Positions 13,097 through 63,379 of a DNA stretch of 64,000 nucleotides are shown one piece after another. The stretch covers positions 1 to 64,000 of IMG/VR virus record IMGVR_UViG_3300035698_018653; one strand, 5' to 3'. The DNA comes from a virus. Position 1 is the stretch's first letter; each line of letters begins with the position of its first letter. A program made the translations under genes and the position numbers. The notes beneath the pieces were generated by a model. The model was not told the origin of the DNA, did no database searches, and worked only from the letters and a program-made list of their open reading frames with translations.

Positions 13097-14044
13097 ATGA
13101 AAGTTAAATTATCTTTTAATAAAATTTATAATCTTTATATTAACGAAAAGAAATCATTACGCTATATAGCTAAAAAGTTCAATACTTATCATCGGTTAAT
13201 TAGTTATTTGTTAAGAAAAAATAACGTTAAGGTAAGAAAAAATGGCACTATTACAAGAAAATTAGAATCACACTATAATAAAATTTATGATCTTTATGTC
13301 AATAAGAAAAAAACATGTAAATATATTGGTAATATATTTTGTACCGACGGCAGTATGATAAGGTGTTTATTGAGAAAAAATGATGTTAAAATGAGAGGCA
13401 AGATTAATGTTAATTTTAATAAAGTTTATGATTTATATGTAAATAAAAAGATATTAATAACTTATATTGCTAATAAGCTTAATGTTTCATTCGGGACAAT
13501 AAGAAAAGTATTAATAGAAAACAATATAGAGATAAGGGATGAAAAAATAAAATTACCATATAATAGGGTTTATAATTTGTATATAAATAAAAATAGAACT
13601 TTAAAATACATAGGGAAAAAATTTAATGTTTCTTGCGATACAATTGGAAGGTTTTTAAAAAAACACAATATACCCATAAGACAATCCCGTGAATATAATT
13701 TGGGGAAAAATCATCATAGCTGGAATGGTGGATCTTCTAAATTTCCTTATCCATTTAATTTCAACGAAGATCTAAAAGAGAGTATTAGAGATAGAGATGG
13801 AAGATTATGTCAAATGTGTGGTAAAACAGAGAGGCAAAATTTAAAAGAAAGTGGTCAAAGACTGTGTGTTCATCACATAGATTATAATAAAGAAAATATA
13901 TTTGTTGAAAATCTTATTGCTCTTTGTAGGTATTGTCATTTAAAGACAAATCAAAAAACCAATAGAGAGGTTTGGACTAAATTTTTTAAACCGATAATGT
14001 TTGAAAAATATCCCTTTAAAAAAGTAAAAGTTTTAATAATGTAG
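13097..14044 (+). mobile_element. HNH homing endonuclease with four N-terminal HTH-like repeats
   Basis: Four repeats of Y.LY.N.K....IA.K.N, then RDGRLCQMCG, VHHIDYNKEN and LCRYCH. Confidence 0.85.
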
Positions 14045-14946: not shown

Positions 14947-15902
14947 TTAATATACTTTATCTCTGTCCAAAACAAATCGAACAACACAAAATGTCAAGGG
15001 TGCGATTTCACGGAATAGATTTTATTGCAAAGCACAAAGAGGTAATTTTACAAAGTTTATATCCAGATAAAGACATAAATGTTTTAGGTATGGTAATTTA
15101 TTCGAGCTTTAAACCAGATTTAATAGTTGCTTATAAACTTCACGAAATGAATAACTATAAAGAACTTGTAAAATACTGTAATAAAAATAATACACCTATT
15201 TGCCTTAGATATAATGAACAATATGATCGAAAGAAAACTACTCAGCAGATAAATGATAGCGGAGCAAGTATTGTTATTTCTCATCATGAAAACGATTATA
15301 AATGGTTTAATAAAAACTATAAAGATAAAAAAGTAAAATTTTATAATATTCCCCACGGAGCCAACGAAAATATTTTTCATGATTATGGTAGCACTCGCAA
15401 GACCGACGTGTTACTTGTGGGGCGTGCGACACCTAAGCACTACCCGCTGCGGGTGCGTCAAAAAGAATGGATAAGGAAATTAAGTAGGATGGGGTATAGC
15501 GCTAAAATACATCAGCACCCAGGGTATAATATTAGAAATGTAAATAAGGATGATATATTAAGAGAGTATGCAAAAGAAATTAATAGCTCAAAAATAGTTT
15601 TATCTTGTTCGAGTAGGTATTTTTACCTGCTTGGTAAGTATTCCGAAACGATGCTATGCAATTCATTATTATGTGCTGATAAACCAGATGATAATAATAT
15701 TCCAGACATTGAAAATAAAATGATGATTATAAATCCAAAAGAAGATGACGCTAAAATTATTTATAAAATATCAGCAATGTTAGGACAAAGAAAAGAGAGA
15801 AAAAGATTAACTGGAAATGGCAGAAAGTTTGCAGAAAAGAATCTCACTATGACTTGCTATGCAAATAAATTTATAAATGCTTTTAAAGACTTTAAAAAAT
15901 GA
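14943..15902 (+). CDS. Glycosyltransferase, GT-B (CgeB/Glyco_trans_1_2-like)
   Basis: IPHGANENIF, YPLR, YAKEINSSKI, KYSE and GRKFA. Confidence 0.75.
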   Translation: MINILYLCPKQIEQHKMSRVRFHGIDFIAKHKEVILQSLYPDKDINVLGMVIYSSFKPDLIVAYKLHEMNNYKELVKYCNKNNTPICLRYNEQYDRKKTTQQINDSGASIVISHHENDYKWFNKNYKDKKVKFYNIPHGANENIFHDYGSTRKTDVLLVGRATPKHYPLRVRQKEWIRKLSRMGYSAKIHQHPGYNIRNVNKDDILREYAKEINSSKIVLSCSSRYFYLLGKYSETMLCNSLLCADKPDDNNIPDIENKMMIINPKEDDAKIIYKISAMLGQRKERKRLTGNGRKFAEKNLTMTCYANKFINAFKDFKK

Positions 15903-18467: not shown

Positions 18468-19125
18468 AGTTTTGCTTTTTGATATTGGAATGAATCAGGG
18501 CAGGACATCTTTAATGTTTGTTAATAGTTTTAATAACATTGGTGTTGAGTACGAGATACATGGTTTTGAACCCATGGTTTATCTTTGTGATATAGCAAAG
18601 AAACGTTTTAAGGATAATGAAAATATTTTTATTTACAACTGTGCATTAACAGATAGTAACGGAAAGGCGAAAGTTTATTTTTGTAGAAATAATGTAGGGC
18701 ATTCGATATTCGAGGATCATGCAGGAATAAAGAAAGGATTATTTCAAGAAGTTGATTCATACAAGTTTTCAGATTGGCTGATAGAGAATATAGGATTTAA
18801 GAGGTTAGAAGAAAATTATGTAATATTAAAGGTAAATGCTGAGGGTGCAGAGTATCATATATTTAAAGATTTATTTGAAACAAAAATGATAAAATATTTT
18901 AAGATAGTTACTGGTGATGATTTTAGTGATATAGATAAGATAAAGAGTATTGAAAATGGTAAGAAATTTCGTGAGGATATATTTAAAATACTTTATAATT
19001 ATAATATATTCTATTATAGAATAACAAGATTTAGAGGTGCAAACATGATGAAGGTAAGAAGAAGGATAAGACGCTGGCTAGATGGAAAAATAGAAACTCC
19101 AGGAAGGATAGACGAAGATGATTAA
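18460..19125 (+). CDS. FkbM-family SAM methyltransferase (paralog of 15899)
   Basis: FDIGMNQG, HGFEP and KVNAEGAEY. Shares the C-terminal NMxKVRRR motif with 15899. Confidence 0.85.
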   Translation: MPKVLLFDIGMNQGRTSLMFVNSFNNIGVEYEIHGFEPMVYLCDIAKKRFKDNENIFIYNCALTDSNGKAKVYFCRNNVGHSIFEDHAGIKKGLFQEVDSYKFSDWLIENIGFKRLEENYVILKVNAEGAEYHIFKDLFETKMIKYFKIVTGDDFSDIDKIKSIENGKKFREDIFKILYNYNIFYYRITRFRGANMMKVRRRIRRWLDGKIETPGRIDEDD

Positions 19126-19738
19126 ATTTAAGCATTATAAGTTTGATGATATAGTTTCTTCTTCTAAAAAGAAAACAAGCAGTGGAAGGAATGCTTTTTT
19201 TCATATGAAAGAATATGATTTTTTAATGACAAGAAAGAATCCAAATGTCCTTGAGTTTGGGGTTGCGCTTGGTTATTCAACTTGCGTTTTTATAAATGCT
19301 GTTGAGAAAACCGGTGGCTTTCTTTACTCTTGTGACATTATTGATTGCGGAGACAGAGTAATAGGAAGTGGAAAGTGGAAGTTTATAAAATGTGATGACA
19401 GAAATGTAAATGTTATTATGCAAAGTGGTAGAATAAAAAAGTTTGATCTAATTCATATAGATAGCTTTATTGATTATCAAAAATCTAATTCTCACGTTAT
19501 AGAACTTTTAGAGAAGTGGAGCAAGTATCTTGTTAAGGGCGGTATAATAACGGTAAGAGGTGTTGACAATACTCCATACAAAAAAGGCGGCAGGAAAGAA
19601 AATTATAGAAAAGCTTTAATGTATGAGAGGGTACACGAAGGAATAGAGACGTTTTTAGAAGACAATAAAGGGTTATTTAAAGCTGAGTTTTTATACGGGT
19701 CAGTAGGAATGGCTTATTTAATAAAATTAAAGGATTGA
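19118..19738 (+). CDS. Class I SAM methyltransferase (Methyltransf_24-like)
   Basis: VLEFGVALGYST, FDLIHID and LVKGGII. Confidence 0.8.
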   Translation: MIKFKHYKFDDIVSSSKKKTSSGRNAFFHMKEYDFLMTRKNPNVLEFGVALGYSTCVFINAVEKTGGFLYSCDIIDCGDRVIGSGKWKFIKCDDRNVNVIMQSGRIKKFDLIHIDSFIDYQKSNSHVIELLEKWSKYLVKGGIITVRGVDNTPYKKGGRKENYRKALMYERVHEGIETFLEDNKGLFKAEFLYGSVGMAYLIKLKD

Positions 19739-19742
19739 AAAT

Positions 19743-20345
19743 TTGAATAAATGGTTACTAGAATATTATTTAAAAATAATATTAGATGCTACTGGTAAAA
19801 ATTTAATTGATTTAAGAGTAAATAGAATATATAATAAAAAATTAGATATTGAAAACGCTTGTAGTTGGGGGTATAATCAAATAATAAAGCCTAGCTGTAG
19901 TATATTGAAAGCTTATGAAAAACATGGAAGAGAATATGATTTTACAAATTCAAGATACTGGAAAATGATTAAATATAGGAATAGAAAACATTAGATAAGT
20001 CCACCAAAAAATAAATTAAATGAATTTCTTAGTTTGTATGAAAGCATTAAAGATAATGGATTTGTGCGTAACAAAAAAGATATGATTGTATTTTTTGATT
20101 TAAAAAATATTTTACCGCTATTTAATTCAAATAAAATTAAAGACAGTATGAAAAGAAAAAAATATATTTATCAGAAAAAACCAGTTAGATATTTTAGGGT
20201 AGGTGGAAATCATAGATGTTCTATAATGAAATTTTTAGGTAAAGATAGTGTTTATTCTAAAATTATAGAACTTGATTTTGCAGATAAGTATCATATTGAA
20301 AAAACAAGTATAGCGTGTTTATCTTGCAAGAAAAATAAATTATAG
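19743..20345 (+). pseudogene. ParB/Srx-like protein split by an in-frame TAG at 19992-19994
   Basis: ORFs 19743-19994 and 20034-20345 share a frame with only the TAG between them. FLSLYESIKDNGF and GGNHR are ParB-like. Confidence 0.55.
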
Positions 20346-20354
20346 AGGTTGATT

Positions 20355-20888
20355 ATGAAAAATAAGATAACAGAATTTATAAGGACCAGGAGAAGCGCTG
20401 GAGCTTTTGATATGTATAAAGAAGTACCCAACGCTTTAATATTTAAAATAATCGAGACTGGTTTATCTGCACCCTCAGCTTGCGATATTCAAGGATGGAG
20501 ATTTCTTGTTATTAAGGACGACAGTGTAAGAAAGCAATTAAGAAATATTGGATTTAGAAAACTTAGAAATTGTCCCGTTGGAATATTTGTTTTTTATTCA
20601 GATGAATTTGTTAATTATGAATATCAAGATCATATTCAAAGCGCTGCCGCCGGTATTCAGAATATGTTATTGGAAGCCCATAATTTAGGGCTTGGTGCTA
20701 GATGGATTTGTGATATTTCAGATAGGAGGAAGATATGTAAGATATTAAATATTCCAAAGGGATTTCAGCCGATAGCATTAGTCAAGGTGGGATATGAGCA
20801 AAAAAGAAATGTAAGTTTTAAGGCATATAAAAGAAATATATTAAACACAGTTCATTTTGATAAATATAACAAGGAGAAAAGTTGGTGA
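20355..20888 (+). CDS. Nitroreductase-family flavoprotein
   Basis: IRTRRS, APSA...QGWRFLVI, QNMLLEAHNLGLGARW and VGY. Confidence 0.9.
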   Translation: MKNKITEFIRTRRSAGAFDMYKEVPNALIFKIIETGLSAPSACDIQGWRFLVIKDDSVRKQLRNIGFRKLRNCPVGIFVFYSDEFVNYEYQDHIQSAAAGIQNMLLEAHNLGLGARWICDISDRRKICKILNIPKGFQPIALVKVGYEQKRNVSFKAYKRNILNTVHFDKYNKEKSW

Positions 20889-27015: not shown

Positions 27016-27175
27016 TTTATTACTCCTTTTGCTTATATTTAATATTGTCACTGGAACTGGCAGTATTAATATACTTAGTTCAAAACAAAGCGCCTGTAGG
27101 GTTGGTAGTTTCCTACCATTTATTGTCATTCCAGTGATCAAACCTACAGGCGCTTTTTGTATAGGAGAAAATAAG
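27016..27175 (+). promoter_or_regulatory. Structured leader (terminator-like stem plus alternative pairings) upstream of the HNH gene
   Basis: Perfect 14-bp stem 27087-27100/27143-27156 ending in a T run. 27048-27065 is complementary to 27121-27137, and an inner hairpin forms at 27103-27118. Confidence 0.65.
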
Positions 27176-58844: not shown

Positions 58845-59009
58845 ATGGAGAAAGAAAACAATCCAAATAGTTTTAACAAAAAAGAAAAAGAGGAGGGAAA
58901 GGATTTAAAGAAAGAAAATACAGTAACCTGTAATAATTGTAAAGCAAAGTTTGTACTTGAAGGTGAAGAAGATAATTGTCCAAATTGTGGATTAGTGTAT
59001 AGGAGATAA
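58845..59009 (+). CDS. Small zinc-ribbon protein (not in the ORF track)
   Basis: AGGAG RBS; CNNC...CPNC. Confidence 0.5.
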   Translation: MEKENNPNSFNKKEKEEGKDLKKENTVTCNNCKAKFVLEGEEDNCPNCGLVYRR

Positions 59010-59013
59010 TAAA

Positions 59014-59625
59014 ATGGTTCCAAAAATAAGTAAATGGAAAATAGCGTTTTATATTATTGGTAGTCTTATTGGAATAATAGGAGTTGTTTTTATTCTTGAA
59101 TTAGCAGGACTTGGCTTCATGAAATTCTTTGAACCAAAGAAAGAAAACATTAGGAGGGAAATATTTGAGAATACAAAGTCATACAGTCATGGCAAGATGC
59201 AGGATTTAGCAAAACAGGCACTAAGTGAAGCACAGAGACAAATTGGAATGCCCAATATAGTTAATTTTCAACAAAGAAAATTACTAAAGGGAATTCTTGA
59301 GCTTTGCGACAAAGAGAAACTTATTTGTTTTGCTTATTTGAAAAGTGATTATACCGGTAAATTAATCTTTATTGGAAAATGTATTGGTTACGGAATTCCT
59401 TTTAGTGCTCAGTTTACAAATCCAGATAAAGTTAAAACTGTAGACGGCGGACAATACAGGGCGAGAAACCCATATACGCTTCCGCAAGCAGATCCTAATG
59501 GATTATTTATGCCCACTTCCAGTAGTGCTACCTGGCTTATTATGATTGACCCCAAAACAAGTAAGCCACGAGCAGTATATATTGAACCCGAAATTGTAGT
59601 GTCACCTTTCCCTCTTCATAAATAA
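59014..59625 (+). CDS. Membrane-anchored phage protein
   Basis: N-terminal TM helix; CIGYGIPFSAQFTNP, QADPNGLF and YIEP.IVVSPFPL. Confidence 0.65.
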   Translation: MVPKISKWKIAFYIIGSLIGIIGVVFILELAGLGFMKFFEPKKENIRREIFENTKSYSHGKMQDLAKQALSEAQRQIGMPNIVNFQQRKLLKGILELCDKEKLICFAYLKSDYTGKLIFIGKCIGYGIPFSAQFTNPDKVKTVDGGQYRARNPYTLPQADPNGLFMPTSSSATWLIMIDPKTSKPRAVYIEPEIVVSPFPLHK

Positions 59626-61886: not shown

Positions 61887-61899
61887 TGTTCTTTGAAAA
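61887..61899 (+). promoter_or_regulatory. rrn-type boxA antitermination element (TGTTCTTTGAAAA)
   Basis: Matches the GYTCTTTGAAAA form of rRNA-leader boxA and is preceded by a small hairpin (61835-61856). Confidence 0.6.
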
Positions 61900-61959
61900 G
61901 CGGGGAGAAACAAAATAGTATTTAATTTAGCTATTTTGATTGCCTATTTCTCCCCGCTT
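61898..61959 (+). other. Strong RNA hairpin
   Basis: AAGCGGGGAGAAA/TTTCTCCCCGCTT (13 bp, perfect) plus an inner CAAAATAG/CTATTTTG stem. Confidence 0.75.
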
Positions 61960-62110
61960 CTTAATCTTTAAAAAAGGGACTGAATTTGATAATGACTATG
62001 AAGCGAAATAAGGAGTTTTCCTTACAATGAGCAATAAACTACTAGAAAGTACATATAATCGCTTAAACCGTCCTGTTTGGCGCTCAAAACAGCTATAATA
62101 AGGAGTTGAT

Positions 62111-62356
62111 ATGTCTAAAGTGAAGGTATTTGTTACCTGTACTGTTCCGAAGTTAGGGGATATGGAAGTAAGTGAACGAATTTTAGTTAATAAAAAGGAT
62201 GTTGAATTTTTTACTTTACAAAAGATATTAAGGGAAAAATACAAAGACAAAAGAACGGTAATTGGAATTGGAGTATATAATAAAGCAGGCGATAAACAAG
62301 TGCCGCTTGAAGAAGTGAAGAAAATACAAAAGAAAAAGAAAGCATTAATATTATAA
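62111..62356 (+). CDS. Hypothetical protein
   Basis: AAGGAG RBS. Confidence 0.7.
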   Translation: MSKVKVFVTCTVPKLGDMEVSERILVNKKDVEFFTLQKILREKYKDKRTVIGIGVYNKAGDKQVPLEEVKKIQKKKKALIL

Positions 62357-62415: not shown

Positions 62416-62532
62416 ATGGCTAATAAAAAAGAAGCATCAATAAAGAGAGAAAAAATAACCTTAAGAGTATGTACTTTAGATTTAAACGATGATGAGTTTT
62501 GGGGCCAACTTGTGAGCGTAGGGGCAAAATAG
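62416..62532 (+). CDS. Small ORF (38 aa) ending in TAG, with the frame open for 31 more codons
   Basis: GGGAGG RBS; MANKKEASIKREK...SVGAK*TLYLTIR... Confidence 0.4.
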   Translation: MANKKEASIKREKITLRVCTLDLNDDEFWGQLVSVGAK

Positions 62533-62695: not shown

Positions 62696-62708
62696 AGCTC
62701 TTTGAAAA
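62696..62708 (+). promoter_or_regulatory. Second boxA-like element (AGCTCTTTGAAAA)
   Basis: Directly abuts the 5' end of the structured RNA. Confidence 0.6.
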
Positions 62709-63035
62709 TTTATGTGGGAGGCGCCGTACTATAGGTGAAAGTGATGAATTTGTCTATAGCACAACGCCCCCGAACTTGTGATTCGGGGTAGCAACTAAAC
62801 CGTAACCTGTTCTGAATTTCTAAAAGTATAGTGGTAATCACCCACCAGGGGCTTTTAAAGCTATATGTTTTTTCAGCGACGTATTCCAACGTCATTATAC
62901 ATATGGCCAGTTCAGTCATTGGCTACGATAAAGTAAGCGCCATTCAGTCAAGAGGTTTGTCAATAAATACTGCATGATTGGCCTCCTTTGCATTATTAGT
63001 ACGGTGACGGAAAGCGTCTGCGCCTCCCACATAAA
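62709..63035 (+). ncRNA. Unassigned ~330-nt structured non-coding RNA
   Basis: A perfect 16-bp closing helix (62709-62724/63020-63035) encloses at least 6 internal stems, several with G-U pairs on the + strand. The segment is locally GC-richer than its flanks. Confidence 0.75.
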
Positions 63036-63064
63036 AATTTTATAAAAAAACAGGAGAAATTAAC

Positions 63065-63379
63065 ATGAAATTATCTAGAGAAGAAAATTATAAGAGATAT
63101 AAAAAGGTAACAATGTTAGCGAGAATAATTAGGTCTGGTAGAAAATTGAGTAAAGATAATTTAAAGTTTTACGACAAAGAAGTAGAAAGAATAAGAAAAC
63201 ATAGGGAAGAATCAGATAAGATTAAGTGGGAAAATTACGATAAAGACATAAAAGGGCTTTCAAAAAAGTTTAAAAGATTAGATAGGGCAATATCAAAAAA
63301 TGACGCATTAGAGTCTATAAAAATAATACGAGATATACTAGTGATCGATGTAGATTTTGGAGGTTTTTGTGAAAGATGA
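63065..63379 (+). CDS. Hypothetical protein
   Basis: AGGAG RBS. Confidence 0.65.
   Translation: MKLSREENYKRYKKVTMLARIIRSGRKLSKDNLKFYDKEVERIRKHREESDKIKWENYDKDIKGLSKKFKRLDRAISKNDALESIKIIRDILVIDVDFGGFCER

What the first reader, a model, noticed from the sequence alone, without database searches (positions are those of the whole stretch)
62709..63035. Large, unassigned structured RNA (~330 nt) closed by a perfect 16-bp helix
Seen: TTTATGTGGGAGGCGC (62709-24) pairs with GCGCCTCCCACATAAA (63020-35). Inside are CGTACTA/TAGTACG (62725-31/62997-63003), GACG-GAAAG-CGTC (63006-18), CCCCGAA/TTCGGGG (62768-74/62782-88), TAAAAGT/GCTTTTA (62821-27/62851-57), GCTATATGT/ACATATGGC (62860-68/62899-907) enclosing GACGT/ACGTC, and GAGGTT/GGCCTC (62952-57/62980-85). 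The G-U wobbles work only on the + strand, there is no long + strand ORF, and a boxA abuts the 5' end. I see no tmRNA, RNase P, SRP or tRNA hallmarks. Inference: a new phage ncRNA class, comparable in concept to the large phage-associated RNAs GOLLD and ROOL.
Basis: partly seen in the sequence, partly recalled or inferred. Interest (0 to 1): 0.85.

Follow-up and report, generated by a model that had tools for sequence, protein, structure and literature searches.

The report
Orphan folded-RNA candidate in a phage
A 327-base gene-free stretch of an uncultured salt-lake phage looks like a folded RNA gene laid out like a miniature ribosomal-RNA precursor, but no relative was found, so its reality and function remain unproven.

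Summary
The sequence features are real. A perfect 16-bp inverted repeat (62709-24 / 63020-35) closes a 327-nt ORF-poor block. The block is richer in G+C and free of strand skew. A boxA-like motif, AGCTCTTTGAAAA, abuts its 5' arm. The closing repeat is far beyond chance, but the interior folds only modestly better than shuffles (z about -1 to -2.5). No Rfam family, tRNA or tmRNA matches.

The element is single-copy in the 126.9-kb record. It has no look-alike in the phage, plasmid, IMG/VR, metagenome or GTDB pattern searches I ran. Its neighbour genes are ORFans and the nearest phage relatives lack it. Covariation therefore cannot be tested.

Best reading (about 0.4): a plus-strand non-coding RNA made in rRNA style. 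BoxA-guided antitermination would carry the polymerase through, and a leader-trailer-type stalk would be cut by host double-strand RNase. The job of the released RNA is unknown.

Rivals are an oversized processing or leader element for the downstream genes, a MITE-like insert, an invertible switch, or nothing functional.

Earlier notes of this scan describe boxA-plus-stalk RNAs in other phages; none was shown to be related to this one. Interest is moderate.

The parts
62696..62708 (+). boxA-like motif AGCTCTTTGAAAA, directly abutting the 5' arm of the stalk
   Evidence: Sequence. GCTCTTTGAAA matches 10 of 11 positions of the gamma-proteobacterial consensus GYTCTTTAANA (PMC5725501). It matches 11 of the first 12 bases of a mycoplasma 16S-23S spacer primer (PMC3019172). 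As a 2-mismatch match to TGTTCTTTGAAAA it is not significant by itself: 8 plus-strand hits against 4.7 in shuffles.
62705..62708 (+). AAAA, a possible 4-bp outer extension of the stalk, pairing with TTTT at 63038-63041 across a 2-nt bulge
   Evidence: Read from the sequence. I11 reports arms 62705-62716 / 63030-63041 as 83% complementary.
62709..62724 (+). P1 5' arm, TTTATGTGGGAGGCGC
   Evidence: mean pair probability 0.93.
63020..63035 (+). P1 3' arm, GCGCCTCCCACATAAA
62725..62731 (+). P2 5' strand, CGTACTA, pairing with 62997-63003 (TAGTACG)
   Evidence: 7 bp, probability 0.84.
62997..63003 (+). P2 3' strand, TAGTACG
63006..63018 (+). Small hairpin GACG-GAAAG-CGTC. It branches between P2 and P1 on the 3' side and forms a three-way junction.
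   Evidence: probability 0.93.
62768..62788 (+). Hairpin CCCCGAA-loop-TTCGGGG
   Evidence: probability 0.97.
62791..62938 (+). Predicted branched domain. CUGAAUU/AGUUCAG and CGUA/UACG close two hairpins (62821-62857 and 62860-62907).
   Evidence: helix probabilities 0.62-0.93. Prediction from a single sequence only.
62939..62982 (+). Weakly predicted hairpin.
   Evidence: probabilities 0.43-0.74 against 0.22 for the alternative.
63051..63379 (+). Context: Shine-Dalgarno-like AGGAG and the 104-aa ORFan gene that starts 29 nt after the stalk. No terminator-like site lies between them.
   Evidence: The protein matches only itself in 5.8 billion proteins.
61887..61964 (+). Context: a second, smaller unit of the same layout. 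An exact TGTTCTTTGAAAA is followed at once by a 13-bp-stem hairpin (61898-61959) and a T-rich tail.
   Evidence: (I2, I16).

Best explanation
The block 62696-63041 is a plus-strand non-coding RNA gene, or RNA cassette, inside a rightward phage operon. It appears to be expressed the way bacteria express rRNA. The proposed steps are these. (1) RNA polymerase reads in from upstream; no convincing promoter of its own was found. (2) The boxA-like AGCTCTTTGAAAA on the nascent RNA recruits host NusB/S10 and the other Nus factors. The polymerase then crosses about 530 nt of untranslated RNA without Rho termination, and the 5' arm stays near the exit channel. (3) When the 3' arm emerges 295 nt later, it closes a leader-trailer-type stalk: 16 perfect bp, plus 7 bp beyond a three-way junction, plus about 4 A-U pairs outside. 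(4) A host double-strand-specific RNase (RNase III or Mini-III type) cuts the stalk. This releases a folded RNA of about 300 nt and separates the upstream message from the downstream one. (5) The released RNA acts in trans, most plausibly as a protein-binding scaffold or decoy. Shown here: the sequence features, their non-randomness, the absence of coding capacity and the absence of any known family. Inferred: transcription, strand, Nus binding, cleavage and any trans function.
For: The closing stalk is far beyond chance (3 repeats of 16 nt or more against 0.12 expected; G/C-rich ones 3 against 0).

The element has G+C 0.43, GC skew 0.02 and AT skew -0.02. The genome has 0.33, 0.26 and 0.14, and three other non-coding stretches have GC skews of 0.26-0.29 and AT skews of 0.13-0.23. 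Among 327-nt windows it lies in the lowest 1.5% for purine excess and the top 3% for G+C. This is as expected for a self-complementary RNA in an AT-rich genome.

Of 187 crude ORFs, 178 are on the + strand, so plus-strand transcription is the default. The strand-specific boxA-like motif is on that strand.

Of the 5 sites in this genome within one mismatch of GTTCTTTGAAAA (3 on +, 2 on -), only the two at 61888 and 62697 are followed at once by a long stem (13 and 16 bp). The other three have stems scoring 8-8.5. The first of the two is an exact 13-mer, TGTTCTTTGAAAA.

Both motifs match 10 of 11 positions of GYTCTTTAANA (PMC5725501, passages). [quoted passage not shown] Leader-trailer helices longer than 17 bp bracket rRNAs, and the antitermination complex is proposed to hold the leader strand until the trailer emerges (PMC10250234, passages).

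A phage using boxA behind its early promoters is in print for T7 (PMC3709561, Introduction passage).

No long ORF and no Rfam, tRNA or tmRNA match. No terminator-like site lies between the stalk and the next gene.
Against: No homologue was found, so there is no covariation at all. The nearest relatives lack any comparable unit.

Without the stalk, the interior is only z -1 to -2.5 against shuffles, and no better on + than on -. The minus strand folds slightly better overall.

The boxA-like motif at 62696 has two mismatches to the exact copy at 61887. At that tolerance there are 8 plus-strand sites against 4.7 in shuffles. Both motifs differ from the gamma-proteobacterial consensus at one position (A to G).

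No promoter and no terminator of its own were found. The phage record encodes no RNase III, so processing would depend on an unknown host. Other parts of the genome, all coding, are equally G+C-rich and skew-free. Perfect 16-bp complementarity is equally what a DNA-level inverted repeat would show.
Confidence: 0.4

Rival explanations
1. A cis-acting processing and stability element, not an RNA with a job of its own. On this reading the stalk is an oversized RNase III-type site in a polycistronic transcript, of the kind that separates T7 early messages. It would split the small upstream genes from the 63065 gene cluster, leaving protective structures at the new ends. BoxA would serve only to get the polymerase to the downstream genes.
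For: The stalk ends 29 nt before the next start codon, with a good Shine-Dalgarno sequence and no terminator-like site between. No own promoter or terminator was found. The interior is only weakly structured. A smaller unit of boxA plus hairpin, with no cargo, lies 800 nt upstream. BoxA elements also regulate protein-coding genes (PMC5725501).
Against: About 295 nt of G+C-enriched, skew-free cargo is far more than a cleavage site needs. T7-type sites are short hairpins (recalled, not checked here).
Confidence: 0.22
2. No present function. The repeat would be a fortuitous or decaying structure, for example the remnant of a past rearrangement or of a lost gene, that is tolerated in an intergenic gap.
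For: It is a singleton with no conservation to show. The interior z-scores are modest. The genome holds two other 16-bp perfect inverted repeats with no obvious role.
Against: A perfect, G/C-rich 16-bp repeat was never seen in shuffles. It is extended by a 7-bp helix. It coincides with a compositional island and with the second of the only two units of boxA plus stem in the genome. The sequence is identical in contigs of four further runs.
Confidence: 0.15
3. A DNA-level insert: a non-autonomous mobile element (MITE-like) with 12-16-bp terminal inverted repeats, that landed in the intergenic region.
For: The terminal inverted repeats are perfect. Composition is unlike the surrounding DNA. A TA or AA duplication at the ends cannot be excluded by eye.
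Against: The record holds one copy. No transposase of the families tested is present: DDE_3, serine and tyrosine recombinases, RT, and only a sub-threshold TnpB-type zinc ribbon. Phage and plasmid collections give no match. The two-arm pattern found 5 GTDB and 13 metagenome loci, all of 42-75% G+C and none alike inside the arms. No contig joins across an empty site, which is weak evidence from low depth.
Confidence: 0.1
4. An invertible DNA switch (inverton). A recombinase would flip the 295-bp segment between the 16-bp repeats. That would bring the minus-strand promoter-like site near the left end (TAGACA-17-TATAGT, 62756-62728) to face the 63065 gene.
For: The geometry resembles known invertible promoters (recalled). 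After inversion, the promoter-like site would lie about 40 nt upstream of the 63065 gene (plus arithmetic). Zero strand skew is also what a flipping segment would show.
Against: The 126.9-kb record, 74% complete, has no serine or tyrosine recombinase. All 4 contigs that cross a repeat boundary, from 3 runs, show the reference orientation, and no joints were reported; these are low-depth contigs, so rare forms would be missed. Promoter-like hits are common here, 21 found against 13.1 expected in 3 kb.
Confidence: 0.06

Closest known systems
Bacterial rRNA operon leader and spacer: boxA antitermination site plus the leader-trailer (RNase III) helix around 16S and 23S rRNA
   Same: A boxA-type motif lies on the transcribed strand just upstream of a long helix formed by sequences flanking a non-coding RNA. 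The stalk length, 16 + 7 (+4) bp, is in the range stated to matter: more than 17 bp for 16S and 27 bp for 23S (PMC10250234).
   Different: The cargo is about 295 nt with no similarity to any rRNA. BoxA touches the stalk directly, whereas in Enterobacteriaceae 16S leaders boxA and boxC are 18-19 nt apart. No boxB or boxC was identified. Nus binding and cleavage are untested.
GOLLD and ROOL, large ornate RNAs often carried by phages
   Same: A phage-borne, gene-free, folded RNA candidate of unknown function in a genome that also carries tRNA genes.
   Different: There is no covariance-model match to any Rfam family, at the curated cut-offs or at E up to 10. The element is much smaller. No homologues or covariation are known. 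GOLLD and ROOL have conserved folds and form RNA-only cages (abstract of PMC12286853).
Phage T7 early region: boxA behind the host-polymerase promoters and RNase III sites between early genes
   Same: A phage uses a host-type boxA for host-polymerase transcription (PMC3709561, passage). On the rival reading, double-stranded RNA structures punctuate a polycistronic transcript.
   Different: T7 RNase III sites are short hairpins (recalled). Here the stalk encloses about 295 nt.
Phage T4 stable RNAs, species 1 and 2 (rnaC, rnaD)
   Same: Stable phage-encoded RNAs of unknown function in a tRNA-bearing phage. This is recalled, and is also named in a scan note.
   Different: The T4 RNAs lie inside the tRNA cluster and are smaller. 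This element lies 4.4 kb from the nearest tRNA. No sequence comparison was made.
MITEs and invertible promoter segments
   Same: Perfect inverted repeats bracket about 300 bp.
   Different: The element is single-copy, with no transposase or recombinase and no second orientation seen.

Membership tests
rrn-type boxA (NusB/NusE binding site) | Sequence match to the boxA consensus on the transcribed strand | tested here: inconclusive
   GCTCTTTGAAA matches 10 of 11 positions of GYTCTTTAANA and 11 of 12 of the mycoplasma spacer primer start. At 2 mismatches or fewer to TGTTCTTTGAAAA there are 8 plus-strand sites against 4.7 in shuffles. The Gram-positive consensus itself is recalled, not checked.
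rrn-type boxA (NusB/NusE binding site) | Binding of NusB/S10 and Nus-dependent antitermination | not testable with these tools
   Needs binding or reporter assays. The host is unknown.
Leader-trailer (RNase III) processing helix | A long helix formed by the 5' and 3' flanks of a non-coding RNA | tested here: met
   16 perfect bp with probability 0.93, continued by 7 bp. The repeat is beyond chance.
Leader-trailer (RNase III) processing helix | Cleavage by a double-strand-specific RNase in vivo | not testable with these tools
   No RNA run holds the stretch. The phage record encodes no RNase III.
Any Rfam family (GOLLD, ROOL, OLE, HEARO, RNase P, SRP, 6S, tmRNA, group I/II introns, riboswitches and others) | Covariance-model match at or near the curated cut-off | tested here: not met
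   Only tRNAs pass the cut-offs in the whole record. At E up to 10 the only hit in the element is a U7 chance match, at 19.5 and 12.7 bits against a cut-off of 34. ARAGORN finds no tmRNA.
Conserved structured ncRNA (any new family) | Homologues with compensatory base changes | tested here: inconclusive
   No homologue was found by blastn, pattern scans or model R1 over 1.33 Mb of own and related phage DNA. Whole collections could not be searched with a structure model.
MITE | Many copies, terminal inverted repeats and target-site duplication | tested here: not met
   Inverted repeats are present, but there is one copy and no look-alikes elsewhere. A duplication is ambiguous.
Invertible promoter segment | A site-specific recombinase and both orientations in the population | tested here: not met
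   No PF00239 or PF00589 match in the record. All 4 boundary-crossing contigs are in one orientation (low depth). The record is 74% complete, so a recombinase could lie in the missing part or in the host.
Retron ncRNA or TnpB/IscB guide RNA | An adjacent reverse transcriptase or TnpB/IscB gene | tested here: not met
   No PF00078 match. PF07282 gives only 18.4 bits, below the 26.3 cut-off, 3.7 kb away and with 2 stops.

The most novel reading that the evidence does not exclude
The element is the founding member of a new class of phage stable RNAs produced by hijacking the host's rRNA production line. BoxA-nucleated antitermination and co-transcriptional closure of a leader-trailer stalk would be followed by RNase III/Mini-III release. 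The released RNA of about 300 nt would act in trans during infection, for example as a decoy or scaffold for a host RNA-processing, ribosome-assembly or defence protein. The small unit of boxA plus hairpin at 61887-61964 would be an 'empty' version of the same cassette.
Probability: 0.2. Interest if true: 0.7.

Novelty: new variant of a known kind. Interest (0 to 1): 0.4.

Why it matters
If real, this would be another case of a large phage investing in a sizeable folded RNA of unknown function. It would also show a phage copying the bacterial rRNA expression logic, boxA plus a processing stalk, to make that RNA. That would give a simple sequence signature for finding such RNAs in uncultured phages. 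It would also offer an experimental handle for asking what they do: boxA or stalk mutants, and RNase III dependence. As it stands this is a single, unconserved instance. It adds a candidate, not a demonstrated RNA class.

Tried and rejected
Known families. Rfam found nothing at the curated cut-offs on the window or on the rest of the record. At E up to 10 it gave only chance hits, on 1.1 kb and on 356 nt. ARAGORN found 4 tRNAs and nothing else.

Close copies. There is one place in the own record. blastn found nothing in 50,697 phage records or 72,556 plasmid records. A 20-mer gave 0 hits in IMG/VR. The unit-1 18-mer gave 0 hits. The pattern of boxA plus stalk start gave 3 loci, all the same coding sequence inside a long ORF, taken as chance.

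Two-arm pattern. It found 5 GTDB loci and 13 metagenome loci. blastn matched only the arms, and none of these loci has an Rfam hit apart from one tRNA. Three are long perfect palindromes and four are one and the same sequence. I rejected them as unrelated, G/C-rich chance or repeat matches.

Neighbour genes as anchors. The 247-aa, 167-aa and 104-aa neighbours each match only themselves. PHROGs and Pfam give nothing usable. The search for related loci with the 247-aa protein and with the portal protein found no relative.

Relatives. A TerL alignment gave 80 IMG/VR loci. I fetched the whole records G001-G003. The nearest, G002, shares 19 ORFs. Five related records gave only 14-22-nt chance matches by blastn. 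None of the three fetched records has a comparable unit of boxA plus long stem. Model R1 found only itself over 1.33 Mb. A full-length model could not be calibrated within the time limit.

Expression. No RNA holder was listed. Contigs of 4 DNA runs are identical to the window where they cover it, so they give no variants for covariation. Stretches without cover say nothing.

Literature. Sequence-string searches yielded only a mycoplasma spacer primer and an unrelated promoter table. Searches for boxA with phage, structured RNA, noncoding RNA or leader-trailer listed no paper describing a phage ncRNA with this layout.

Full report
What the window is. The window is the first 64 kb of a 126,906-base IMG/VR virus record, classed as linear and estimated 74% complete. 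G+C is 33%. Of 187 crude non-overlapping ORFs, 178 lie on the + strand. Portal, major head protein, tape measure and large terminase lie at 76-98 kb, so this is a large tailed phage. Its portal protein is at most about 26% identical to that of any isolated phage among the 25 best rows. The distant hits are mostly phages of Gram-positive hosts: Staphylococcus 239, Bacillus 130 and Streptomyces 78 of 501 records. Contigs from four further DNA runs, in four studies labelled salt lake metagenome, carry the stretch with no differences where they cover it.

Checking the observation. The 16-bp perfect inverted repeat is at the stated coordinates (I3). The eighth, GAGGTT/GGCCTC, is a minority alternative at about 0.22. 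The longest ORFs overlapping the block are 48 aa (+) and 69 aa (-), neither with a ribosome-binding site that I could see. AGCTCTTTGAAAA ends exactly where the 5' arm begins.

Is it more than chance? Perfect inverted repeats of 16 nt or more, spaced 30-2000 nt, number 3 in the genome against 0.12 in 25 block shuffles. G/C-rich ones of 14 nt or more number 3 against 0. The whole element folds at -105.1 kcal/mol, z -4.6. Most of that signal is the stalk. The interior 62732-62996 gives z -0.98 (+) and -2.22 (-), and 62760-62990 gives -2.47 and -2.59.

The strand argument. The minus strand folds at -108.4 kcal/mol with 11 G-U pairs, against 8 on the plus strand.

Composition. The element has G+C 0.43, GC skew 0.02 and AT skew -0.02; its interior has 0.41, 0.00 and -0.03. 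The genome has 0.33, 0.26 and 0.14. Three other non-coding stretches keep the genomic skew, with GC skew 0.26-0.29 and AT skew 0.13-0.23. Among 327-nt windows the element is in the lowest 1.5% for purine excess and the top 3% for G+C, although several coding regions are similar. Loss of skew together with raised G+C is what extensive self-pairing produces. An invertible or a foreign segment would produce it too.

Known families. Rfam 15 gives only tRNAs across the whole record. With permissive filters the only hit in the element is a U7 chance match, caused by the boxA-like string: 19.5 and 12.7 bits against a cut-off of 34. ARAGORN finds four tRNAs in the window and no tmRNA. The record has no reverse transcriptase, DDE_3 transposase, serine or tyrosine recombinase, or RNase III. 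It has only a sub-threshold TnpB-type zinc-ribbon match 3.7 kb away. Retron RNAs, guide RNAs, autonomous transposons and self-encoded invertases are therefore not supported.

Search for relatives. The element is single-copy. It has no blastn match in the phage or plasmid collections. Its 20-mer and the unit-1 18-mer are absent from IMG/VR. The pattern of boxA tail plus stalk start found three loci, all one coding sequence. The two-arm pattern found 5 loci in 185,579 species genomes and 13 in the metagenome collection. All have 42-75% G+C, and blastn similarity is limited to the arms. Three are palindromic contigs and four are one repeated sequence. I take these as unrelated.

The three nearest sizeable neighbour proteins match only themselves in 5.8 billion proteins (the 247-aa and 104-aa ones) or in 1.84 billion representatives (the 167-aa one).

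A terminase alignment gave 80 IMG/VR loci. I searched five related records by blastn and fetched three whole records, G001-G003. The nearest, G002, shares 19 ORFs, mostly structural. Neither blastn nor a covariance model of the 197-nt inner domain found anything but the element itself. That model, R1, came from a single sequence and so has limited reach. It was run over 1.33 Mb of the own genome plus these relatives. A full-length model exceeded the calibration limit. In G002, at 8.3-9.7 kb upstream of TerL, there is a repeated intergenic unit of about 170 nt with palindromic boxes; it is not alike. Covariation therefore cannot be assessed.

The boxA-plus-stalk layout. Two plus-strand sites within 810 nt carry TCTTTGAAAA. 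TGTTCTTTGAAAA at 61887 is followed at once by a hairpin with a 13-bp stem (61898-61959) and a T-rich tail. AGCTCTTTGAAAA at 62696 is followed at once by the 16-bp stalk. Of the 5 sites in this genome within one mismatch of GTTCTTTGAAAA, only these two have a long stem immediately downstream. Their stems score 13 and 16, against 8-8.5 for the other three and 7-11 for the 8 such sites in the three fetched relatives.

Both motifs match 10 of 11 positions of the gamma-proteobacterial boxA consensus GYTCTTTAANA (PMC5725501, passages read). The first equals the first 12 bases of a nested-PCR primer aimed at the mycoplasma 16S-23S spacer (PMC3019172, Methods passage). That this string is the Gram-positive rrn boxA is my recollection, not a tool result. 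As a caveat, at two mismatches such motifs are not rare: 8 against 4.7 expected.

In rrn operons, boxA is necessary and sufficient to form the antitermination complex. rRNAs are bracketed by leader-trailer helices: more than 17 bp is critical for 16S, and the 23S helix is 27 bp. The complex is proposed to hold the leader strand near the RNA exit until the trailer emerges (PMC10250234, passages). T7 has a boxA behind its early host-polymerase promoters (PMC3709561, passage).

Mechanism proposed. Put together, the most economical reading is a plus-strand RNA cassette made like a miniature rRNA precursor. BoxA protects a roughly 530-nt untranslated stretch from Rho and helps the 5' and 3' arms to meet. 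The resulting stalk of 16 + 7 (+4) bp is a substrate for a host double-strand RNase. A folded RNA of about 300 nt is then released. No step beyond the sequence features has been shown. What the RNA would do is unknown. I lean towards a protein-binding scaffold or decoy only because no catalytic or regulatory family matches.

Rivals. (a) The structure serves only as a processing and stability site for the downstream operon. The lack of an own promoter or terminator, and the 29-nt distance to the next gene, fit this. (b) It is a MITE-like insert. (c) It is an invertible promoter. A minus-strand TAGACA-17-TATAGT near the left end would face the next gene after inversion. However, such hits are common here (21 against 13.1 expected). 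No recombinase is encoded. All 4 boundary-crossing contigs show one orientation. (d) It has no function.

Relation to earlier notes of this scan. Notes on the same genome describe the same stretch and the upstream unit of boxA plus hairpin. Notes on other genomes describe phage RNAs with a boxA and a long closing stem. These are unchecked leads. A word-based sequence look-up of the scan's notes matched only this genome. I could not compare sequences with them and saw no evidence that any is homologous to this element.

Verdict. The interpretation as a structured RNA is plausible but rests on layout and composition, not on conservation or expression. It belongs to no known family, and it is not shown to found a new one.

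Noticed in passing
window 61887-61964: An exact TGTTCTTTGAAAA is followed at once by a 62-nt hairpin (13-bp outer stem, inner AAAATAG/CTATTTT helix) and a T-rich tail. It looks like a nut-like site or a boxA-guarded terminator. It has the same layout as the main element but no cargo.
   Followed up: partly
window 62027-62101 and 62416-62532: Two very small ORFs (24 aa and 38 aa) have strong Shine-Dalgarno sequences (AAGGAG, GGGAGG). They lie between the two boxA units, beside the 81-aa ORF at 62111-62356. All lack relatives or were not searched.
   Followed up: no
G000 90961-90976 / 91904-91919 and 13740-13755 / 15466-15481: Two further perfect 16-bp inverted repeats, both AT-rich, are spaced 927 and 1710 nt apart. 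Only 0.12 such repeats are expected from shuffles.
   Followed up: no
window 27087-27156 and 18838-20479: Two G/C-rich 14-bp perfect inverted repeats. The first (AAAGCGCCTGTAGG, gap 42 nt) looks like a hairpin or terminator. The second spans 1.6 kb.
   Followed up: no
window 58920-59027: A sub-threshold match to the TnpB/Cas12f-type zinc-ribbon domain (PF07282, 18.4 bits against a cut-off of 26.3) with two TAA stops inside, just after the tRNA cluster.
   Followed up: no
L034 311-480 and 1526-1695 (record G002): The nearest related phage has an intergenic unit of about 170 nt, repeated twice, with palindromic TGCATAAATTTATGCA-like boxes. It lies 8.3-9.7 kb upstream of its terminase gene and is probably a regulatory region.
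   Followed up: no
proteins P0017 and P0020: Two distant terminase relatives are about 900 aa long and carry intein/HNH-type domains (PF14890, PF13392, PF07460) inside the terminase.
   Followed up: no
L012, L020, L022: Three metagenome contigs hit by the two-arm pattern are near-perfect long palindromes around the match. They are probably fold-back assembly artefacts.
   Followed up: no
whole record G000: The phage is very isolated. Its portal is at most about 26% identical to that of any isolated phage among the 25 best rows. The best terminase relative among 5.8 billion proteins is 55% identical. Three neighbour genes of the element have no relative at all.
   Followed up: partly
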